Positions 3,911-14,770 of a stretch of DNA of 64,000 nt are shown here, one piece after another. Source of the stretch: a virus; IMG/VR virus record IMGVR_UViG_2643221642_000002, positions 1 through 64,000 of that record; one strand, written 5' to 3'. Position 1 is the stretch's first letter. Each line of letters opens with the position of its first letter. The notes under the pieces are model-generated. The model was not told the DNA's origin and made no database searches. It was given only the letters and a program-made list of their open reading frames with translations. A program made the position numbers and the translations under genes.

Positions 3911-4599
3911 GGCTGCACCCGCTTGAACTCGACCACCCAGACCCACGGATTGGCGTCCCAGGACTCGTCGCCGTTGATCGACCGCCAGAGGAATTCCCAC
4001 AGCACCAGGGCCGGGGCAGTGACGCGGGGCAGGGGGCCGACATAGTCCGGGCTGATGACGTGGGGATCGCCCAGGCTGGCCTCACGGACGCCTTCGGCCT
4101 CGGCGTCGGCCTCGGTGATCGCGCGCAGGCGCTCGACCCGCAGGCCGGTGATCTCCAGCGTCAGGCGGCTGGCCCAGTGCGGCATGTGCATGGGCGGGCA
4201 GCGGTTGCCCTCCTTGTGATGCGCCCAGGCGACCATTTCCTTCGCGCGCGGGTCGGTGTGGCGCATTGAGATCGCCTGCTCGTCGGCGCCGTAGACCCAG
4301 TGGCCGATGGTGCTGCGCCGCAGCTCCTCGCGCACCCAGAGACGGTCGCCGACGTTGCCGTACGGGCACTTGACCCAGGTCAGCGGCCCGCCCTTCGGGT
4401 GCTCGAGCTGCGCGCCGACCCGGCTGTCGGCCGGGTTGACGGCCATGGTCGCCGTAGGCGCCCTCTGCAGCTTCTCCGGGGTCAGCCAAGCGGACTGCTT
4501 GCCGGGAGCCGGCTTCATGACCCGGCGGGTCTGGCCCTTGATGTCGGACTGGATGGCGCGGACCATCGGGCCCGAGAACAGGATCGGGCGGTCAACCAT
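3907..4599 (-). CDS. Conserved phage protein (ASCH-like N-terminus)
   Basis: N-terminus ILFSGPMVRAIQSDIKGQTRRV is a widely conserved phage motif; 230 aa. Confidence 0.55.
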   Translation of the reverse strand: MVDRPILFSGPMVRAIQSDIKGQTRRVMKPAPGKQSAWLTPEKLQRAPTATMAVNPADSRVGAQLEHPKGGPLTWVKCPYGNVGDRLWVREELRRSTIGHWVYGADEQAISMRHTDPRAKEMVAWAHHKEGNRCPPMHMPHWASRLTLEITGLRVERLRAITEADAEAEGVREASLGDPHVISPDYVGPLPRVTAPALVLWEFLWRSINGDESWDANPWVWVVEFKRVQP

Positions 4600-5719
4600 G
4601 GGCCATCTCCGGCATATCGTTGTGCTCGCGGCCGTCCAGGAGACGCCCGTTGCCGCCCTTCGACGCCTTGACCATCAGGCGCCAGGCGACGCCCTCCGGC
4701 AGGTTCAGGTGGTGCCCTCGAAAGGTGCGCCCGTCGGCGCTGACGAAGGCGGTCTCCCGACCGGCGAAGAGCGACATGATGCTGTCGGCTGCGTCGTCGT
4801 CAGCGTCGACGATGTCGACCTTGGGGCCGTCCTCGTCGTGGAAGGCTTCCTTGAAGGAGCCCCACTGTTTGAAGAAAAAGGCGACGCTGGCTCGCTCGCA
4901 GTCGGAGCGGATCTTGCGCGGCCAGTCGGGGTGCATCGGTCGGGAGTCAGCACCGCTTTCGCCGCCGACGATCACCTGGTCGAGCGGCGGCAGCCGTGTG
5001 GGACAGTAGTCGCCAAACATACCGCTCAGCTCGCCGGTCAGCGCGTTCAAAACCTCCGCGCCTCGGAAGCGCAGCGTCGAGATCCTGGTGAAATCCAGCC
5101 CCTCCAGCAGGGGTTCAGCCGACACGATACGCTTGGCTGCCGGCGTTTGGAGAAGGTCGACGACGCGGACGATCCGAGCCTGGTCTTCGACGGAGACTCC
5201 CAGCCAGACGTTCGGGAGCGGGCTGGCCAGCAGCCCGGCGTCGACCAGGTCGATCAGCTGGCGACGGCCGGTGGGATGATCGACCCAGGTAAAAAGCAAG
5301 CGGTCCAGGCCGACGGGCGTGAACAGGCCGGCGACGTACTCGCGCATGGCGTCCGCGCGCTTAGTCAGGATCTGATAGGTATGGTGCGGCGTCGCGGCCA
5401 TGACCGCCCAGACCTTGTCGATCAGCGCGATCGGCACGCCTTCGGCGAACAGGTCGCTCATGCTGTTGACGAAGATCCTGCGCGGCCGGCGCCAGCGAAG
5501 CGGCTTGAAGACGACCTCGTCGGGCGCGGCGGCCATCTTGCCGGTCCAGACGAACCCGGCCTTGGTCTTCATGGTCGTGCCCGCGTAGTGCGGGACGCCG
5601 ATCGCCTCGAGGCGGCCGGCCATCTTCATAGCGTAGCAGTGCTTGCAGCCCGGGCTGACGACCTGGCAGCCCACGACGGGGTTCCAGGTCTCGTCCGTCC
5701 ATTCGATCTTGCTGGCCAT
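4592..5719 (-). CDS. Phage Gp37/Gp68 family protein (DUF5131)
   Basis: From the internal ATG at 5717-5719 (GGAG SD 7 nt upstream): MASKIEWTDETWNPVVGCQVVSPGCKHCYAM…, the hallmark N-terminus of the Gp37/Gp68 family. Confidence 0.75.
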   Translation of the reverse strand: MASKIEWTDETWNPVVGCQVVSPGCKHCYAMKMAGRLEAIGVPHYAGTTMKTKAGFVWTGKMAAAPDEVVFKPLRWRRPRRIFVNSMSDLFAEGVPIALIDKVWAVMAATPHHTYQILTKRADAMREYVAGLFTPVGLDRLLFTWVDHPTGRRQLIDLVDAGLLASPLPNVWLGVSVEDQARIVRVVDLLQTPAAKRIVSAEPLLEGLDFTRISTLRFRGAEVLNALTGELSGMFGDYCPTRLPPLDQVIVGGESGADSRPMHPDWPRKIRSDCERASVAFFFKQWGSFKEAFHDEDGPKVDIVDADDDAADSIMSLFAGRETAFVSADGRTFRGHHLNLPEGVAWRLMVKASKGGNGRLLDGREHNDMPEMAHG

Positions 5720-5774
5720 CGGCGCAGGACTCCGGGGCGGCCGGCGTCTAGCGCCGGCCGCGGGGAAGGGGAGA

Positions 5775-6623
5775 TCAGTCGATCTTGATGAAGGGCACGG
5801 CGCCCGAGGTGACGCGCGGCAACACACCGTCCCACTTGGCGATGGCCTGCTGCTGCATGATCTGCGGATTGGCGCGCAGGGCCTGGCCGCGGATGGTCAG
5901 CGCCTGGGCGTCACCCTCGGCCTCGGCGACCTTGCGGCGCTTCTCCGCCTCGGCCACAGCGGCCTCGGCGTTGGCCTTCTGAACGTCCTGGTCCGCCCGG
6001 GCCCGCGCCAGGATCGACGTCGTCACGACCTCGGGGAAACGCGGCGCGCCCGACCATTCCAGCCGGGTGATCTCGATGCCGTCGCCGCGCCAGCGGTTCG
6101 AGACCTCGCTGAAGGCGTCGCGGGCGATCTTCTGGTAGCCGCCGCCCAGCATCGACTCGACGGGCATGGTGGCCGCCGACCGCGCCACGGCCGTGCGGAC
6201 CGCGTTGCGGATCTGGTTCTCCAGCAGGTAGTCCAGGTTGGCCCGGTACTTGGTGTAGACGCTGGGCGCGGCCGTCGGCAGGACGCGGACGCCGATATTG
6301 ATGTCGCCCTTGATCTCCAGGCCGTTCTTGTCGACGAAGACCAGCTCCTCGTTTTCGCCGCCATCACCGTTGGTCTCGCGGGTGTAGCTGTATTGGCGTT
6401 CGATCACCGGATACTGGAAGATGCGCTCACCGGGCATGCGCAGGTGCCAGCCGGTGGCAAGGGCGTCGGCGGCCACGCCGGGCGCGCCGCCGGTCGGGAA
6501 GGCGCGGAACTTCACGCCGACACTGCCCGGCTCGACGGTCGTCGAGTGACATCCGACGAAGCCCAGCAGGGCCACGGCGCTGACGCCGATCAAGATGAAG
6601 CGCACCGCGCTGTTCGTGCTCAT
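5775..6623 (-). CDS. SPFH/band-7 (prohibitin/HflC-like) domain lipoprotein
   Basis: 282 aa from the ATG at 6621-6623 (GGAGAG SD). Signal peptide with lipobox LLGFVGC, then an SPFH-domain body and a coiled-coil C-terminus (…AEAAVAEAEKRRKVAEAEGDAQA…). Confidence 0.7.
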   Translation of the reverse strand: MSTNSAVRFILIGVSAVALLGFVGCHSTTVEPGSVGVKFRAFPTGGAPGVAADALATGWHLRMPGERIFQYPVIERQYSYTRETNGDGGENEELVFVDKNGLEIKGDINIGVRVLPTAAPSVYTKYRANLDYLLENQIRNAVRTAVARSAATMPVESMLGGGYQKIARDAFSEVSNRWRGDGIEITRLEWSGAPRFPEVVTTSILARARADQDVQKANAEAAVAEAEKRRKVAEAEGDAQALTIRGQALRANPQIMQQQAIAKWDGVLPRVTSGAVPFIKID

Positions 6624-6673
6624 AGTGGTCTCTCCTGCGCCCGCCATCCCCCGGGCGCGTGGGGATGGGTGGG

Positions 6674-8588: not shown

Positions 8589-9194
8589 CTAGGCCGTCGG
8601 CTGAAGGCCCTGCAGGTGGCAGACGTCGGCCGGACGGAACACGCCGACCCTGTTCAGGCGGCGATAGCCCTCCTGGATCAGCAGAGCCTGCTCGCGGGCG
8701 TCGTCGAGCGCGTGGTGGAACACGCCTTCGCTGTGTTCGAGCTTCAGGCCGAAGAGGTCGTAGATCGTCCGGCAGTCGCGGCCGGCGTTGTAGCGCCAGG
8801 GCGGCTTGATGCCGGCGGCGCGGTAGGCCGCGCCCAGAAGGGTCTCGTCGTAGCTGGGCCCGTTGGACCAGAGGCGATCCGTCTCGTCAGCGACCGGCGC
8901 GTTGACGATGTAGAAGGCGCTGAACTCGGCCAGCACCTCCATGATGGGCCTGGTATCGACGTCGAGGGCCGCCCGGGCGACGGCGCGCTTGGGCGCATCC
9001 CACCACTCGACCGTGCCGGGATCTTCGATCAGGCCGATGGCCTTGGCGGATTCGCGGTCGATGGTCCGGTAGAACGTCCTGTCGGTCAGACCCGCGCCGG
9101 CGGGATCGAAGGCGACCGCGCCGATGGAGGCGATCGACGCCCCAGGGAAGTTCCCCCAGGTCTCCAGGTCGTGGCAGATGTGCAGCTTGATCAC
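8589..9194 (-). CDS. DEDD-type 3'-5' exonuclease (DnaQ/Rv2179c-like)
   Basis: GTG start at 9192-9194 with AAGGAG SD and a GTGA overlap with the upstream stop. Motifs: IKLHICHDLETWG (Exo I) and GVFHHALDDAREQ (H-x4-D, Exo III). Confidence 0.7.
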   Translation of the reverse strand: MIKLHICHDLETWGNFPGASIASIGAVAFDPAGAGLTDRTFYRTIDRESAKAIGLIEDPGTVEWWDAPKRAVARAALDVDTRPIMEVLAEFSAFYIVNAPVADETDRLWSNGPSYDETLLGAAYRAAGIKPPWRYNAGRDCRTIYDLFGLKLEHSEGVFHHALDDAREQALLIQEGYRRLNRVGVFRPADVCHLQGLQPTA

Positions 9195-9880
9195 GCGGCG
9201 CTCCTTTGGGCGTGGATGTGGGCCAGCAGCTGGTGGCCCAGGTGTTCGGTGAAGGCGGGCGGGATCGCCTCGGACAGCTCGTCGAGCGTCATCCAGTCGA
9301 TGCCCATGGCCTCGCTGGCGGCGGCGTTGTGGCCGCCCTCCCAGACGTCGCGCGTGCCCCGGCCGCCGCGCTTGGCGGCGCGGTTGCGGGCATGGCCGCC
9401 ATAGACGCCGATGACCGGCTTGCGGTGGACGCACGGGCCTGGCGCGCTGATCGCGATGTTGCTCTCGAACAGGCGGTGACGCTCGAGGTGGTGGCCCTGG
9501 GCCCCGAGGCCGAACATCGAGCCGCACAGCTTGATCGGTTCGATCATGTCGAACGCGGCCATCTCGACGTTCTCGATGACGTAGGGCAGGCCCAGGCCCT
9601 GCAGGATCTTGCGGATGCGGCCGATTTCCTGGGGCCGACCCTTCGCGCCCTTGGCGTGGCGCAGGGAGCTGTACCCCTGGCACTCAGGGCTGGCGTGCAC
9701 GGCGTCGGCCGCGGCGTAGAAGCCGGGCGCCAGGCCCCAGACGTCGGCCTGCATGAACTGGAACGGGTAGTTGGGCTGCGGGTCCCAATCGACGCCGATG
9801 ACGTCGAACCCGGCCTGGTGGTAGCCCATGGCCACCCCGCCGGCTTTGCAGAAGAGGTCGATCAAGACGGGCCGGGTCAT
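9191..9880 (-). CDS. Short DNA cytosine-5 methyltransferase-like protein
   Basis: 229 aa with C5-MTase motifs: I (LFCKAGGVAMG), IV (HASPECQGYS, the catalytic PC motif), VI (YVIENVE). Unusually short, with no obvious target-recognition domain. Confidence 0.7.
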   Translation of the reverse strand: MTRPVLIDLFCKAGGVAMGYHQAGFDVIGVDWDPQPNYPFQFMQADVWGLAPGFYAAADAVHASPECQGYSSLRHAKGAKGRPQEIGRIRKILQGLGLPYVIENVEMAAFDMIEPIKLCGSMFGLGAQGHHLERHRLFESNIAISAPGPCVHRKPVIGVYGGHARNRAAKRGGRGTRDVWEGGHNAAASEAMGIDWMTLDELSEAIPPAFTEHLGHQLLAHIHAQRSAA

Positions 9881-12249
9881 TGCACCAGCTCGAAATCAGG
9901 GGCCTCGAGGTAGGGCTGGTCCTCGGTGCGGACGGCCAGGGCCAGGGCCAGCGGCTGAACCCATATCGGCTCGTTCGACAGGATGAAGCTCGTCCCCGTC
10001 ATCGCCATCAGCAGGGTCTTGCCCATGACGGAAGCGATCGCCGTCGCCGAGTCCGAGGGCACGGCGTTGCCGATGCGCTCGCGCTTGTCGGCGTCGCTCT
10101 TGCCCTCCAGCTGGAAGAACCAGGCGTCCTCGAGGTTGAAGAGAGACTGGAGCGCGGCCAGCTCGAGGGTGGTGAACGGGCGGTGCCAAGTGCCATCCAG
10201 CGCGCGGATCACCGCGACCAGGCGGTCCTTGGCGTCCGGCAGCGCCAGGGCGCGCATCACCTGGGCGTCGGGCAGCACGACCCTGGGGTCGCCGACGGAC
10301 CAGAAGCCGTTGTTGTTCTTGGCGTAGGCCGGAACCGCGTTCGAGGCGTTGCGCCACGGCACGACCCCATAGTGGCCCTGGTTGGCGTAGGTATCGCGGT
10401 CCTTGTGCGCTAGGCCGATCGGCCGCGGGTCCGCGACTGACCAGCGGCCGTTGTCCCACGGGTGGGCGTTGGCCAGGACCGCGCCGGTGGTGTCGGTGTA
10501 CTTGACCACGCCGTAGTGGTCGCAGCGCACGGTCTTGTAGGCGGTCAGCCCGATCGGGCGGGGATCGGCGACGCTCAACGCGCCCGAGCCGACTCGGTCG
10601 GAGCCCGTCACCGTCCCGGCCGATCCACGGTAGCCCACGACCCGCAGCTTGTTGCGGTGGCTGTTCTCGCCGAAGCCCGTGCGCGGGTCGGCGACCGAGA
10701 ACATGCCCTGCAGTGGCGAACGGGCGGTCGTCAGGACGCCGGCGGTGTCGCGCCAGCGCATGACACCGGCCTGGCCGGTGGCCCACAGCTCAACGCGAGG
10801 GTCAGCGACCGCATAGGCGCCGTCGCCCGTGGTGCTGGCGCCGATCACCGTCCTGGACGCGCCCCTGTAGGGCGTGACGAGGTACTTGGTGTGGACGTAG
10901 TCGCTGCCGGGGTGTCGCGGGTCGGCGACGGCGGCGAGAGCCCCGCGCGCAGAGGTCACGACCGGGCCGGTGTTCTCCCAGGGCACGATCCGATAGACGT
11001 TGCTGAAGCGCGGTCCCGTGTCCTTGAAGCGAGGATCACTGATCGCGTAGGGACCCGTCCCGACCGAGACGTCGCCCTTGATGCAGGGCGCTGAACAGCT
11101 CCAGCGGCGCACGCCCAATTGAACGGACTTGTGGTGGCCGTCGACGCGGGGATCCGCGACCGAAAACACGCCCTGGCCTGGCCGCCCCTCGCGCACGACA
11201 CCGGCCGTCGCGTTGAAGGCCTGAACGCCGTAGGCGCCGGGATGCCACTGGGCCGTCTCGCGCGGGTCCGCCACCGAATAGCGGCCGGTGGTCGCCTCGG
11301 CGTTGGCAGAGATCACGCCGGCGCTGGCGCCGTAGTGCAGGACGCCGAGCGTGCCGTCGCGCCAGGGGCGTTCGGGCATGATGCCGTAGTCGCGCAGGAC
11401 GCCGTCCTCGACCACGAGATCCTTCAGTGACCGCCAGTCCTTGCCGGCCTCGACGAAAGCCAGGCGCACCCAGGTCTGCCATTGCAGCTTGGGCATGCGG
11501 TGCATGTCCGGGGCCCGGGGATCATCGGGCAGCGGCAGCTTGTCCAGGACTTCGCCGACGCCACGCAGGCGCTGCTTCGGCGGCTCGTACAGGAAGGGTT
11601 GCACCTTCGCGGCGTGGCGGGCCACCAGCAGGAACCGCTTGCGGCTCTGGGCCAGGCCGCCCAGCTCGCCGCAGTCATGGGTCGTCTCGGCCACGGCGTA
11701 GCCGTAGTAGCGAAGCATCGAGATGATCTGGTCGAGCAGGTGGCGGCCGCGCGTCGCGATCCGGGGCACGTTCTCGAAAATGATCAGTTCGATCGGGTCG
11801 TCCTGATAGGCCTCCAGGGCGAGCCATAGGCAGCGCAGCGTCAGCTCGTTCAGCGCCTGGTACTTGACCGTCTTACTGACTTCCTCGGCCAGCAGGCCCG
11901 AGAAGCCCTTGCACGGCGCCGAGATGAACAGGATGTGCGGGTGCTTGTGCTGGAAGGCGGCGTGCAGATCCTGGGGCGTCGCCTCGACGAAGTCGGCTGG
12001 CGGGGCCTTGTCGTGGAAGCGGCGATACTGGTCGACCGTGAACAGGTCGCGGACCGTACCGGGTGTCCCGGTCATGCGTCCGAAGTCACGGATCGCTGCC
12101 GGATCGACGTCGATCCCACCGATGCAGTTGAAGCGCGCGCGCAGGTTGCCGACGCGGGCTTGGCCGTTGTTGAAGCCCCGGGCCCCCGCGCCCAGGCCGC
12201 AGGCCAGGTGGGCGTGGTTGATGTCGACGTCGACGACGAGGGAGCTCAA
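9877..12249 (-). CDS. DNA cytosine-5 methyltransferase with nine tandem ~40-aa SVADPR repeats in the target-recognition domain region
   Basis: Motifs I (LACGLGAGARGF), IV (FISAPCKGFSG), VI (IIFENVPRI) and X (RERIGNAVP) are present. Between motifs VIII and IX sit nine repeats (…SVADPRE…, …SVADPRV…, …ISDPRF…, …AVADPRH…, …AVADPRV…, …SVADPRT…, …SVADPRP… ×2, …SVGDPRV…). Start uncertain: TTG 12247-12249 (GGAGGG SD, TTGA overlap) or GTG 12304-12306. Confidence 0.75.
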   Translation of the reverse strand: MSSLVVDVDINHAHLACGLGAGARGFNNGQARVGNLRARFNCIGGIDVDPAAIRDFGRMTGTPGTVRDLFTVDQYRRFHDKAPPADFVEATPQDLHAAFQHKHPHILFISAPCKGFSGLLAEEVSKTVKYQALNELTLRCLWLALEAYQDDPIELIIFENVPRIATRGRHLLDQIISMLRYYGYAVAETTHDCGELGGLAQSRKRFLLVARHAAKVQPFLYEPPKQRLRGVGEVLDKLPLPDDPRAPDMHRMPKLQWQTWVRLAFVEAGKDWRSLKDLVVEDGVLRDYGIMPERPWRDGTLGVLHYGASAGVISANAEATTGRYSVADPRETAQWHPGAYGVQAFNATAGVVREGRPGQGVFSVADPRVDGHHKSVQLGVRRWSCSAPCIKGDVSVGTGPYAISDPRFKDTGPRFSNVYRIVPWENTGPVVTSARGALAAVADPRHPGSDYVHTKYLVTPYRGASRTVIGASTTGDGAYAVADPRVELWATGQAGVMRWRDTAGVLTTARSPLQGMFSVADPRTGFGENSHRNKLRVVGYRGSAGTVTGSDRVGSGALSVADPRPIGLTAYKTVRCDHYGVVKYTDTTGAVLANAHPWDNGRWSVADPRPIGLAHKDRDTYANQGHYGVVPWRNASNAVPAYAKNNNGFWSVGDPRVVLPDAQVMRALALPDAKDRLVAVIRALDGTWHRPFTTLELAALQSLFNLEDAWFFQLEGKSDADKRERIGNAVPSDSATAIASVMGKTLLMAMTGTSFILSNEPIWVQPLALALAVRTEDQPYLEAPDFELVQ

Positions 12250-12566
12250 TGTGCGCCCTCCGACAGGGCGACGACGCCAGCGACCCTCACGCGCAGTTCC
12301 CTGCACATGGCAGGTCCAGTGTCGGGCTTGCCGGAGGCGTGGCCCAACGAAAAGGCGTCGGCGTCGAAGTGGCCGATCACCGCCTGCTGGCAGGCCAACG
12401 AGATCAGGTAGTCGGCGTGGACAACACCTGCTTCCGGGATCGTGAGCAGGTCGACGACCGGCGGCGCGTCGCCTTCGTCAGCGCGGATCCGCCGTTCGGC
12501 TTCCGCAAAGAGGTCCGCCAGCTGCGCGCGGGTGATCGTGAGCGTGGTGATGCTAAGGAGGGCCAC
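12246..12566 (-). CDS. Hypothetical protein
   Basis: 106-aa ORF with a GTG start; coupled to flanking genes. Confidence 0.45.
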   Translation of the reverse strand: MALLSITTLTITRAQLADLFAEAERRIRADEGDAPPVVDLLTIPEAGVVHADYLISLACQQAVIGHFDADAFSLGHASGKPDTGPAMCRELRVRVAGVVALSEGAH

Positions 12567-13796: not shown

Positions 13797-14108
13797 CTAG
13801 TTGAGGGTTGCTGACCGCACGGTGTAGGACCCGTTGGAGGAGGTGCACGACGCTTCGCCAGAAAAGCGGCTCCGGATCGGTACGCCGTAAGAGTTTTGAG
13901 CATCGACCTGGCCGATGATCAGGTACTCGTGCACGCCGGTTGTGATCGTTGTGACTTCGATAAATTTAGCTGTGCTCGGCGCTTTCAGTTGGCCGCGGAT
14001 CGCGTCCTTGACCGCCTTTTCAGCGCCGATCGGCATGCATGCCAGGTCCGAGCAACCCGTCAGCATTGTCGCTCCCGCCAGTGCTGCGGCTAGAAAAACG
14101 GCGCGCAT
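13797..14108 (-). CDS. Small lipoprotein co-transcribed with the CI repressor
   Basis: 103 aa from the ATG 14106-14108 (TGATG coupling with cI); signal peptide MRAVFLAAALAGATMLTGC with lipobox LTGC. Confidence 0.6.
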   Translation of the reverse strand: MRAVFLAAALAGATMLTGCSDLACMPIGAEKAVKDAIRGQLKAPSTAKFIEVTTITTGVHEYLIIGQVDAQNSYGVPIRSRFSGEASCTSSNGSYTVRSATLN

Positions 14109-14770
14109 CAGGCGGCCGTATGGTCGAGGCGAATGATCTTCTCCGCCTGGTGTGGGGGCGCGATCCAAGCGATGTGTGCAACCCAGACTAGGCGCTGATC
14201 TTCGAGCGTCGGCGCCTGCAGCGATTGCAGGTCGTAGACGTCCTTGTTGCTGCCCTTCATCAGTCGCTTGAACACGATCTCGCCGCTCTCAAGCTGGCAG
14301 AATACCAGGCGATGAAGCATGTCCTTCGTCGGCTCAGGCAGGCGCTCGTCGTAGTAGATCAGCGATCCGTCATCGACGACGCTTCTATAGGCGTGGCCTT
14401 CGACCTTCAAGATCACGACGTCCTCGCTGGCCCCCGGCGGGATAGGGGCATACTCCCTGGCCTGGCCGGAGGTGAAAGCGACCGAGTCGTCCGGCATGGC
14501 GCCCAGCTTGCCGACGATGCGGCCCATGCGCTCGCTCGGCCCGAACATCAAAAACTCAGGCGTCGTGCGGAACTTCTTTGCGAAGACCTCGGCCTTCTTT
14601 CTAGAGAACGGACTCGTGCCGTTCTCATGCTGGATATAGGTGTTGCGGCTTAGCCCTAGGGCCTCGGCGGCGTCGGTCGCCGTCTCGTAACCGGCGCCCT
14701 CGCGGGAGGCCTTGAGCCTCGCTCCGGCCTCTCGGTTCTTCTGACGGGTTTTGGCGTCGGTCGTGGACAT
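14108..14770 (-). CDS. cI: CI-like repressor (XRE HTH + LexA-like S24 peptidase domain)
   Basis: N-terminal HTH (…ATDAAEALGLSRNTYIQHENGTS…) and C-terminal S24 autopeptidase region (…VVILKVEGHAYRSVVDDGSLIYYD…KRLMKG…). Divergent from cro with three operators in between. Confidence 0.85.
   Translation of the reverse strand: MSTTDAKTRQKNREAGARLKASREGAGYETATDAAEALGLSRNTYIQHENGTSPFSRKKAEVFAKKFRTTPEFLMFGPSERMGRIVGKLGAMPDDSVAFTSGQAREYAPIPPGASEDVVILKVEGHAYRSVVDDGSLIYYDERLPEPTKDMLHRLVFCQLESGEIVFKRLMKGSNKDVYDLQSLQAPTLEDQRLVWVAHIAWIAPPHQAEKIIRLDHTAA

What the first reader, a model, noticed from the sequence alone, without database searches (positions are those of the whole stretch)
9877..12249. Cytosine-5 methyltransferase whose target-recognition domain region is replaced by nine tandem ~40-aa 'SVADPR' repeats
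The catalytic motifs I, IV (PCKGFSG), VI (ENV) and X (GNAVP) are intact. Between motifs VIII and IX lies a ~340-aa insert (nt ~10267-11283) built from nine repeats with 38-47-aa spacing, each centred on (S/A)-V-A-D-P-R. The repeat is also visible at DNA level with ~120-nt periodicity (…GTCGGCGACCG…). Multispecific phage C5-MTases such as SPR and phi3T carry several ~40-50-aa target-recognition domains in tandem. A nine-module array would therefore be either an extreme multispecific anti-restriction methylase or a new repeat fold (propeller-like) acting as a DNA-recognition domain. I have not seen this architecture described.
Basis: partly seen in the sequence, partly recalled or inferred. Interest (0 to 1): 0.8.

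Follow-up and report, generated by a model that had tools for sequence, protein, structure and literature searches.

The report
Prophage cytosine methylase with nine recognition cassettes
A prophage DNA cytosine methyltransferase carries nine different ~40-residue cassettes where such enzymes normally have one DNA-recognition domain, so it probably protects phage DNA against many restriction enzymes at once; it belongs to a large, shuffled and uncharacterised family.

Summary
Gene 9877-12249 (-) encodes a 790-aa C5 cytosine methyltransferase with all catalytic motifs. Between motifs VIII and IX lie nine 38-47-aa modules, each ending in xVADPR (9 observed, 0.009 expected by shuffling).

The array is not a propeller-like fold. 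AlphaFold gives it no confident structure. In a 2-module relative, the module next to motif IX folds confidently, and the whole model superposes on M.HhaI over 297 of 327 residues, so large and small domains are both covered.

The family forms at least 359 clusters at 50% identity. It occurs in prophages and phages of Alpha-, Beta- and Gammaproteobacteria, including phiCTX and PBC5, with 1 to 11 modules per protein. The modules fall into about 25 conserved types that are swapped like cassettes: 106 architectures in 118 proteins, and proteins with identical cores carry different arrays.

The best explanation is a multispecific anti-restriction methylase with alternative recognition modules. This works like the Bacillus-phage enzymes SPR and phi3T but is unrelated in sequence and carries far more modules. 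No experiment exists for this family. An unrelated Paracoccus prophage methylase family that also has tandem modules blocks at least 16 restriction enzymes.

Verdict: new variant of a known kind.

The parts
9877..12249 (-). Complete gene for the 790-aa C5 cytosine methyltransferase (TTG start, TGA stop)
   Evidence: It is 100% identical to P0001. The start overlaps the upstream stop (ATTGA) and follows a GGAGGG. The stop overlaps the ATG of the next ORF (ATGA).
11575..12249 (-). Catalytic (large) domain, aa 1-225. Motif I is at 12172-12201, motif IV PCKGFSG at 11896-11916, motif VI ENV at 11767-11775 and motif VIII QSRKR at 11635-11649.
   Evidence: PF00145 E=1.4e-12, profile positions 21-164. 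AlphaFold pLDDT is above 90. Foldseek matches DNMT1, M.HaeIII and M.HhaI at E about 1e-10.
11425..11574 (-). Conserved segment before the array, aa 226-275 (…MHRMPxLQWQTWVRLAFVEAGKDWRSL…). It is the N-terminal part of the small domain.
   Evidence: Nearly invariant columns in alignment A1. Helices are predicted in both models.
11260..11424 (-). Linker plus module 1 (type J), aa 276-330, ending in SVADPR
   Evidence: Orthologous modules occur in 36 other proteins at 59% identity.
11146..11259 (-). Module 2 (type O), aa 331-368
   Evidence: Found in 14 other proteins at 53% identity.
11029..11145 (-). Module 3 (type E), aa 369-407, type motif DGHxKSVQLGVRxW…VGTGPY
   Evidence: Found in 73 other proteins at 68% identity.
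10915..11028 (-). Module 4 (type C), aa 408-445, type motif PRF(S/N)NxxRIV
   Evidence: Found in 110 other proteins at 51% identity.
10795..10914 (-). Module 5 (type B), aa 446-485, type motif KYxVT…VIxASTTGxGA
   Evidence: Found in 114 other proteins at 60% identity.
10681..10794 (-). Module 6 (type H), aa 486-523, type motif T..RSPxQG
   Evidence: Found in 52 other proteins at 55% identity.
10558..10680 (-). Module 7 (type F), aa 524-564, type motif HxNK…VTGSDRVGSGA
   Evidence: Found in 62 other proteins at 68% identity.
10423..10557 (-). Module 8 (type M), aa 565-609, type motif DHYGV…DNGRW
   Evidence: Found in 16 other proteins at 60% identity.
10282..10422 (-). Module 9 (type D, normally the last module in the family), aa 610-656, type motif GHYGV..W…AVP, ending in SVGDPR
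   Evidence: Found in 98 other proteins at 55% identity.
9880..10281 (-). C-terminal part, aa 657-790. Motif IX WHRPFTTLELAALQS is at 10144-10188 and motif X GNAVP at 10057-10071.
   Evidence: PF00145 profile positions 270-323. AlphaFold pLDDT is about 90 for aa 690-760.

Best explanation
This is a prophage-encoded orphan DNA (cytosine-5) methyltransferase with one catalytic core and nine alternative target-recognition modules strung between motifs VIII and IX.

Shown:
- the catalytic core is an intact C5-methyltransferase fold;
- the nine modules are distinct, individually conserved types;
- the family reshuffles these types as cassettes;
- in a short relative, the module next to motif IX folds confidently and the whole model matches known enzymes over both domains.

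Inferred:
- one module at a time docks into the small-domain slot, its 'xVAD' strand joining the sheet, and presents its two type-specific loops to the DNA;
- each module therefore directs methylation of its own short sequence, giving up to nine specificities, though some modules may be silent;
- the enzyme is made from the early leftward operon after induction or infection and pre-methylates phage DNA, so the phage escapes many host Type II restriction systems;
- module exchange between phages retunes the protection spectrum.
For: 1. Position. PF00145 matches profile positions 21-164 before the array and 270-323 after it, so the array occupies the variable TRD region.

2. Module signature. 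The module consensus is h-G-V-x-x-W-x-x-x-a-G-x-V-T-g…G-x-x-S-V-A-D-P-R. It includes the '(W)xxP/AxT-V/I-T' plus Gly core, which from my own knowledge is typical of C5-methyltransferase TRDs. The same pattern is visible in both TRDs of SPbeta MtbP.

3. Discrete types. 977 modules from 118 homologues cluster into about 25 recurrent types with type-specific invariant motifs. Each of the nine window modules is 51-68% identical to its orthologues in 14-114 other proteins. That is close to the catalytic domain (66-71%) and well above the 26-38% identity to its sister modules.

4. Cassette exchange. There are 106 architectures in 118 proteins. P0037 and P0062 have 100% identical N-domains and 98% identical C-termini, but their arrays are A-K-ECBLGD and X-I-H-ECBLGD. 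P0046 versus P0115 shows a precise loss of module L. P0055 versus P0111 shows L-G replaced by A. All breakpoints lie at the DPR boundary.

5. Continuum of module number. Complete members of the clade carry from about 1 to 10 modules. P0236, 468 aa, has a single module.

7. Context. The gene lies in a prophage: integrase, S24/cI-type repressor, primase, DnaB and tape-measure genes are present. It sits in an early operon with no restriction endonuclease nearby. Homologues occur in phages PBC5, phiCTX, LKA5, H66, Dobby, PS3 and CF418P1.

8. Precedent. [quoted passage not shown] The unrelated ~700-aa Paracoccus prophage methylases partially protect against at least 16 restriction enzymes (PMC3925955). 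Their 69%-identical homologue Pyei1_p05 has 8 tandem '(D/R)EPxxT(I/V)' modules.
Against: - No methylation data exist for any member of this family in the literature I could search.
- Single modules match nothing in Pfam or the PDB at sequence level.
- hhalign finds no similarity to SPbeta MtbP or to Pyei1_p05. The TRD assignment therefore rests on position, motif pattern and a fold match of the whole model, not on residue-level homology.
- AlphaFold docks only the last module. Module type D is almost always last, so it is possible that only this one acts as a TRD.
- Types C, B and D are nearly universal, which could mean a structural rather than a specificity role for them.
- The Paracoccus enzymes were interpreted by their authors as 'relaxed specificity', not multispecificity, and protection was only partial.
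Confidence: 0.65

Rival explanations
1. Only the module adjacent to motif IX (type D, or the last module) is the true target-recognition element. The upstream modules are accessory. They could be non-specific DNA clamps that raise processivity or affinity, or spacers, so the enzyme would have one specificity or very few.
For: AlphaFold folds only the last module confidently in the 2-module relative. Type D is present and last in 100 of 118 proteins. Types C and B are nearly universal.
Against: The upstream modules are as conserved within type as the catalytic domain, and they carry type-specific invariant loop motifs. It is exactly these upstream modules that are exchanged between otherwise identical proteins, which is the pattern expected for specificity determinants. 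From my own knowledge (Wilke et al. 1988; Trautner et al. 1996), internal TRDs are active in the Bacillus-phage enzymes.
Confidence: 0.15
2. The array acts collectively to give a relaxed, nearly sequence-independent cytosine methylase (for example any CC or GC context). It would not be a set of discrete specificities.
For: The ~700-aa Paracoccus prophage methylases with tandem modules were reported as 'relaxed specificity', with only partial protection at many sites (PMC3925955; PMC5537653).
Against: That is a different family. tblastn finds no hit between them, and the catalytic motifs differ. A non-specific binder would not need about 25 sharply distinct, conserved module types or cassette turnover. 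In the Paracoccus data some sites (CGCG, GATC, GGNNCC, CCATGG) stayed fully cleavable, which fits a finite list of motifs better than non-specificity.
Confidence: 0.12
3. The nine repeats form one new repeat fold, such as a propeller or solenoid, that serves as a single DNA-binding or protein-binding domain.
For: The period is regular at about 40 residues with an invariant DPR.
Against: AlphaFold with 115 sequences gives pLDDT 35-55 and almost no secondary structure across the array. Module number ranges from 1 to 11 among relatives, and there are 106 architectures in 118 proteins. Precise single-module indels occur between near-identical proteins. The 2-module relative matches the canonical two-domain methyltransferase architecture.
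Confidence: 0.03

Closest known systems
Multispecific C5 methyltransferases of temperate Bacillus phages (M.SPRI, M.Phi3TI, M.SPBetaI/MtbP, M.Rho11sI, M.H2I; also M.phiBssHII)
   Same: Both have one catalytic core with several tandem, non-overlapping recognition modules of about 40-50 aa between motifs VIII and IX. Both are phage-borne orphans without a restriction enzyme, and both presumably serve to evade many host restriction systems (PMC12707154; PMC8936443). The module core pattern 'xxPT(L/V)T…GG' is visible in MtbP.
   Different: There is no detectable sequence relationship. hhalign of the module profile against MtbP gives probability 0.2%, and the catalytic domain belongs to a separate clade of only 776 clusters. 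This enzyme has 9 modules and the family up to 11, against 2-5 in the Bacillus enzymes. Every module ends in an invariant xVADPR, which the Bacillus enzymes lack. The hosts are Proteobacteria. About 25 module types are recombined into 106 architectures in 118 proteins. Multispecificity is experimentally proven for the Bacillus enzymes and untested here.
About 700-aa 'relaxed-specificity' m5C methylases of Paracoccus and Sinorhizobium prophages (JCM7686_0772, JCM7686_2655, Pyei1_p05, Phi2LM21_p23)
   Same: Both are large prophage orphan C5 methylases of Alphaproteobacteria. Pyei1_p05 carries 8 tandem TRD-like modules spaced 22-42 aa in its variable region. Its close homologues partially protect DNA against at least 16 different restriction enzymes.
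   Different: This is a different family. Its motifs are FAGGGG, SPDCKHFS and GNSVCPP, it has no xVADPR punctuation, tblastn with the window protein does not find it, and hhalign shows no similarity. The authors did not describe the tandem modules.
Monospecific bacterial C5 methyltransferases (M.HhaI, M.HaeIII; E. coli prophage CP-933R methylase 3g7u)
   Different: These enzymes have a single TRD. Sequence similarity is too low for HMMER to detect against the PDB, even with a family profile.

Membership tests
DNA (cytosine-5) methyltransferase (PF00145 / TIGR00675 superfamily) | Conserved motifs I, IV (PC), VI (ENV), VIII (QxRxR), IX and X (GNAVP) in canonical order | tested here: met
   All motifs can be read in the translation. 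PF00145 scores E=1.4e-12 over profile positions 21-164, and 1.3e-3 over positions 270-323. TIGR00675 scores below its cut-off at 32 bits.
DNA (cytosine-5) methyltransferase (PF00145 / TIGR00675 superfamily) | Two-domain fold: a Rossmann-like catalytic domain plus a small TRD domain | tested here: met
Multispecific phage C5 methyltransferases (SPR / phi3T / SPbeta type) | Several tandem, non-overlapping modules of about 40-50 aa in the variable region between motifs VIII and IX of a single polypeptide | tested here: met
   There are nine 38-47-aa modules at aa 276-656, flanked by PF00145 positions up to 164 and from 270.
Multispecific phage C5 methyltransferases (SPR / phi3T / SPbeta type) | Modules are autonomous units: distinct in sequence, individually conserved, and can be added, lost or exchanged without disturbing the rest | tested here: met
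   About 25 types were found. Identity within a type is 51-68%, against 26-38% between sister modules. Precise cassette indels and swaps occur between proteins with 92-100% identical cores. This is comparative evidence only.
Multispecific phage C5 methyltransferases (SPR / phi3T / SPbeta type) | Each module confers methylation of its own target sequence (shown by deletion or swap experiments) | not testable with these tools
   This needs expression plus 5mC mapping. No data for this family were found in the literature.
Multispecific phage C5 methyltransferases (SPR / phi3T / SPbeta type) | Sequence homology to the Bacillus-phage enzymes (common descent of core and TRDs) | tested here: not met
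   hhalign of the module profile against SPbeta MtbP gives probability 0.2%. The N-domain search returns a separate clade. The enzyme is therefore filed as 'works like', not as a member.
Multispecific phage C5 methyltransferases (SPR / phi3T / SPbeta type) | Encoded by a temperate phage as an orphan, with no cognate endonuclease | tested here: met
   Prophage genes surround it, and no nuclease of restriction type was detected among the neighbouring ORFs scanned. Some neighbouring ORFs have no family match.
Paracoccus / Sinorhizobium ~700-aa 'relaxed specificity' prophage m5C methylases | Sequence homology to JCM7686_0772 / Pyei1_p05 | tested here: not met
   Pyei1 is not among the 41 tblastn hits. 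Its motifs differ. hhalign gives probability 0.2%.
Closed repeat fold (beta-propeller or solenoid) | Confidently predicted regular repeat structure with a fixed or constrained repeat number | tested here: not met
   The array has pLDDT 35-55 and almost no secondary structure. Relatives carry 1-11 modules.

The most novel reading that the evidence does not exclude
The xVADPR-delimited modules are a natural plug-and-play library of at least 25 autonomous, roughly 40-residue DNA-sequence readers. Each would confer its own methylation target on a shared catalytic core. This enzyme would then have nine specificities, and relatives up to eleven, which is two to three times the record of the Bacillus-phage enzymes. 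Phages would retune their anti-restriction spectrum by recombining cassettes at the conserved boundary.
Probability: 0.5. Interest if true: 0.75.

Novelty: new variant of a known kind. Interest (0 to 1): 0.62.

Why it matters
If each cassette reads its own sequence, this family is the richest known natural example of modular specificity in a DNA methyltransferase. That has three consequences.

1. Phage biology. It would explain how temperate phages of Caulobacter, rhizobia, Pseudomonas (phiCTX, F116-like phages) and others cross many restriction barriers with one gene.

2. A testable recognition code. Natural variants with identical cores but different cassettes, such as P0037 and P0062, would let one assign motifs to 40-residue modules by simple methylome sequencing. 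That makes the long-standing question of a TRD 'recognition code' directly testable.

3. Engineering and annotation. It would supply compact parts for engineered targeted methylation. It also means that 5mC methylomes of lysogens could be far more complex than the annotation 'DNA cytosine methyltransferase' suggests.

Tried and rejected
- Tandem Repeats Finder on the DNA found nothing in the array.
- Pfam, NCBIfam and PDB sequence searches with single modules or a module profile gave only chance hits.
- phmmer and a family-profile hmmsearch of the whole protein against the PDB found no methylase, so the family is too divergent at sequence level.
- hhalign of the module profile against SPbeta MtbP and against Pyei1_p05 gave no similarity.
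- The AlphaFold model of the 9-module protein with a 115-sequence alignment left the array unresolved. Part of this may be an artefact, because MAFFT cannot align shuffled cassettes.
- I considered that the conserved VADPR codons act as DNA-level recombination sites. Synonymous positions differ among the nine copies, so there is no special DNA conservation, and I do not claim this.
- I first took the Paracoccus and Sinorhizobium ~700-aa methylases to be the same family. After reading Pyei1_p05 I rejected this.
- The older Trautner-lab papers (PMC450048, PMC1171429) are not held. Details about the Bacillus enzymes therefore rest on my own knowledge plus two secondary citations.
- The Pseudomonas phage PA8 homologue looked like a possible short member but is a frameshifted pseudogene.
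Full report
**1. What is in the window**

The ORF 9877..12306 on the minus strand is 809 aa. The real start is the TTG at 12249. It overlaps the stop codon of the upstream ORF (ATTGA) and is preceded by GGAGGG. The resulting 790-aa product is identical to the NCBI protein 'DNA cytosine methyltransferase [Caulobacter sp. Root343]' (P0001). The stop codon overlaps the ATG of the next ORF (ATGA), so the gene sits in a translationally coupled operon.

The surrounding sequence is a prophage. It has an integrase at 1-1164, an XRE-type regulator, an S24/cI-type repressor at 14108-14770, a primase, a DnaB helicase and a 1506-aa tape-measure protein. No restriction endonuclease was detected among the neighbouring ORFs I scanned.

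**2.

The protein has motifs I, IV (PCKGFSG), VI (ENV), VIII (QSRKR), IX (WHRPFTTLELAALQS) and X (GNAVP).

Pfam PF00145 matches profile positions 21-164 in the N-terminal part and 270-323 in the C-terminal part. The segment in between therefore lies exactly where C5 methyltransferases have their variable target-recognition domain (TRD).

That segment contains nine [VI][AGS]DPR motifs spaced 38-47 residues apart. Shuffling the protein gives 0.009 such motifs on average and never more than one. No other reading frame of the window has any.

At DNA level only the codons of xVADPR recur. Tandem Repeats Finder reports nothing, and module DNA identity is 35-58%. This is an ancient protein repeat, not a recent tandem duplication.

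**3. The architecture is common but unannotated**

The word-indexed search returned more than 100 full-length relatives of 650-880 aa, at 45-73% identity over about 95% of the query. All are annotated only as cytosine methyltransferase or left unnamed.

tblastn against phage genomes finds the family in the following phages, usually labelled 'hypothetical protein':
- Sinorhizobium phage PBC5;
- Pseudomonas phages phiCTX (orf41, with five modules), LKA5, H66 and Dobby;
- Marinobacter phage PS3;
- Achromobacter phage CF418P1.

An exhaustive search with the catalytic domain alone finds 776 clusters at 50% identity, 359 of them with E <= 1e-30. This is a distinct, moderately large clade.

Pfam, NCBIfam, PHROGs and the PDB have no model or structure for the array.

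**4. The modules are discrete cassettes**

I split the arrays of 118 homologues at the DPR boundary. This gave 977 modules, with 6-11 per protein.

Average-linkage clustering at 50% identity gives 37 clusters, 25 of them with at least three members. Each type has its own invariant residues in two places: the stretch before the 'hGVxxW' strand, and the loop between 'VT' and the Gly-x-x-SVADPR end. Examples are DGHxKSVQLGVR…VGTGPY, KYRVT…ASTTGxGA, HxNK…VTGSDRVGSGA and EYxQYGVRxW…INVKSPGQG.

The window protein reads J-O-E-C-B-H-F-M-D. Each of its nine modules has orthologues in 14-114 other proteins at 51-68% identity. That is close to the catalytic domain (66-71%) and well above the 26-38% identity to the other eight modules of the same protein. 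All nine are therefore maintained by selection as different things.

The 118 proteins show 106 different architectures, with order largely conserved: 43 violations in 1727 ordered pairs.

Proteins with nearly identical cores differ by whole cassettes, always at the DPR boundary:
- P0037 and P0062 have 100% identical N-domains and 98% identical C-termini, but carry A-K and X-I-H respectively in front of the shared ECBLGD;
- P0046 and P0115 differ by a precise loss of L;
- P0055 and P0111 differ by L-G versus A.

This pattern of fast, modular turnover on a stable scaffold is what one expects of specificity determinants in an arms race. It is hard to reconcile with a cooperative repeat fold.

**5. 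Structure**

AlphaFold2 on the window protein (115-sequence alignment) gives pLDDT above 90 for the catalytic domain and the C-terminal helices. Across the array it gives 35-55 with almost no secondary structure. Foldseek places the confident part with DNMT1, M.HaeIII and M.HhaI.

The clade contains complete members with very few modules. P0236 (468 aa) has one. P0196, P0202 and P0192 have two.

The model of the 2-module P0196 has mean pLDDT 88 and pTM 0.87. Its second module, next to motif IX, scores 78-94, and its first module scores 30-67.

**6. Most likely mechanism**

One catalytic core is served by nine alternative recognition modules. One module at a time occupies the small-domain slot and reads its own short DNA sequence with its two type-specific loops. 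The enzyme would therefore methylate several unrelated targets.

It is made from a prophage early operon and has no cognate endonuclease. Its role would be to pre-empt many host Type II restriction systems. Cassette exchange between phages would change the protection spectrum.

The catalytic identity, the modular anatomy, the cassette dynamics and the prophage context are shown. The one-module-one-motif rule and the anti-restriction role are inferred.

**7. Comparison with what is known**

The principle is that of the Bacillus temperate-phage enzymes (SPR, phi3T, SPbeta, rho11s, H2). [quoted passage not shown]

SPbeta MtbP, which I extracted for comparison, shows two 'xxPT(L/V)T…GG' cores. There is no detectable homology to the modules here, and the catalytic clade is separate. 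This enzyme also has far more modules and a unique xVADPR punctuation. It works like those enzymes but is not a member of their family.

A second, independent analogue emerged from the literature. The ~700-aa prophage m5C methylases JCM7686_0772 and JCM7686_2655 of Paracoccus aminophilus were expressed in E. coli. They gave partial protection against AluI, BglI, BsuRI, EcoRII, Hin6I, HpaII, MspI, NciI, PvuII, TaiI, XhoI and others. CGCG, GATC, GGNNCC and CCATGG sites stayed cleavable (PMC3925955). The authors called this 'relaxed specificity' and noted that such large enzymes are widespread (PMC5537653; PMC6536676).

Their 69%-identical homologue Pyei1_p05 belongs to a different C5-methylase family, with motifs FAGGGG, SPDCKHFS and GNSVCPP. 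It is absent from my tblastn hits. Yet it too has eight tandem '(D/R)EPxxT(I/V)' modules spaced 22-42 residues apart. This is convergent support that tandem TRD-like arrays go with multi-site methylation.

I found no paper that describes the xVADPR family or its cassettes. The library lacks most subscription journals and REBASE, so I cannot exclude prior description.

**8. Rivals**

(a) Only the last module (type D, nearly always terminal, and the one AlphaFold docks) is a TRD, and the others are accessory. Against this, the upstream modules are the ones conserved by type and exchanged as cassettes.

(b) The array gives relaxed, near non-specific methylation. Against this stand the many sharply distinct types.

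(c) The array is a single propeller or solenoid fold. Against this stand the AlphaFold result, the 1-11 range in module number and the precise single-cassette indels.

**9. Verdict**

The multispecific reading is the best supported (about 0.65). The repeat-fold reading is rejected. The finding is a new, much expanded and combinatorially shuffled variant of a known kind of enzyme, in a widespread family that has not been characterised. A single expression plus EM-seq experiment would settle it.

Noticed in passing
window 9191-9880 (-): A 229-aa ORF lies immediately downstream, with its ATG overlapping the methylase stop (ATGA). It looks like a minimal C5 methyltransferase with motifs I, IV-like (SPECQGYS), VI (ENV) and VIII (RHRLF), but with no room for a TRD. 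It matches phrog_363 'DNA methyltransferase' at 5e-30, PF00145 only weakly, and M.HaeIII at E=0.013. The same 229-aa gene follows the methylase in the 73%-identical locus L005, but not in Ancylobacter or phiCTX. Its function is unknown, as is whether it uses the neighbour's modules.
   Followed up: partly
P0040 (Mesorhizobium sp. L-8-10, 1129 aa); representatives P0136, P0140, P0156, P0163, P0173, P0195: Several family members carry an insertion of about 390 aa at the motif IV PCKG region. P0040 reads SAPC|…LAGLIDADG domain…|HNCKGFSG and hits PF14528, so it looks like an intein in the active site. Six cluster representatives show the same split of the N-domain match at query residue ~110.
   Followed up: partly
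L008:1990-4011 (-) (Paracoccus phage vB_PyeM_Pyei1, pyei1_p05): This unrelated 673-aa C5 methylase has eight tandem '(D/R)EPxxT(I/V)' modules in its variable region. Its 69%-identical relatives were published as 'relaxed specificity' enzymes. The tandem modules are not mentioned in the passages I read, and they may explain the multi-site protection.
   Followed up: partly
L001:1420-2480 (Pseudomonas phage PA8, NC_073672): The PA8 homologue is broken by frameshifts and stops after about 100 codons, and is annotated as two hypothetical proteins. It is a decayed copy of the family.
   Followed up: yes
AF448724.1 41810-43957 (Sinorhizobium phage PBC5): The original GenBank record splits the PBC5 methylase gene into four 'unknown' ORFs (orf51-54). 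The RefSeq copy annotates one methyltransferase.
   Followed up: no
window 8589-9683 (-): The mechanical ORF is 364 aa, but the Rv2179c-like 3'-5' exonuclease domain starts at residue 168. The syntenic gene in L005 is 206 aa. The real gene probably starts near 9200, directly after the 229-aa ORF.
   Followed up: partly
window 4592-5827 (-) and 5775-6647 (-): The same leftward operon contains a DUF5131 (phage Gp37/Gp68-type) protein (1e-85) and an SPFH/Band-7 protein. DUF5131 is also present in the syntenic locus L005. Their roles are unknown.
   Followed up: no
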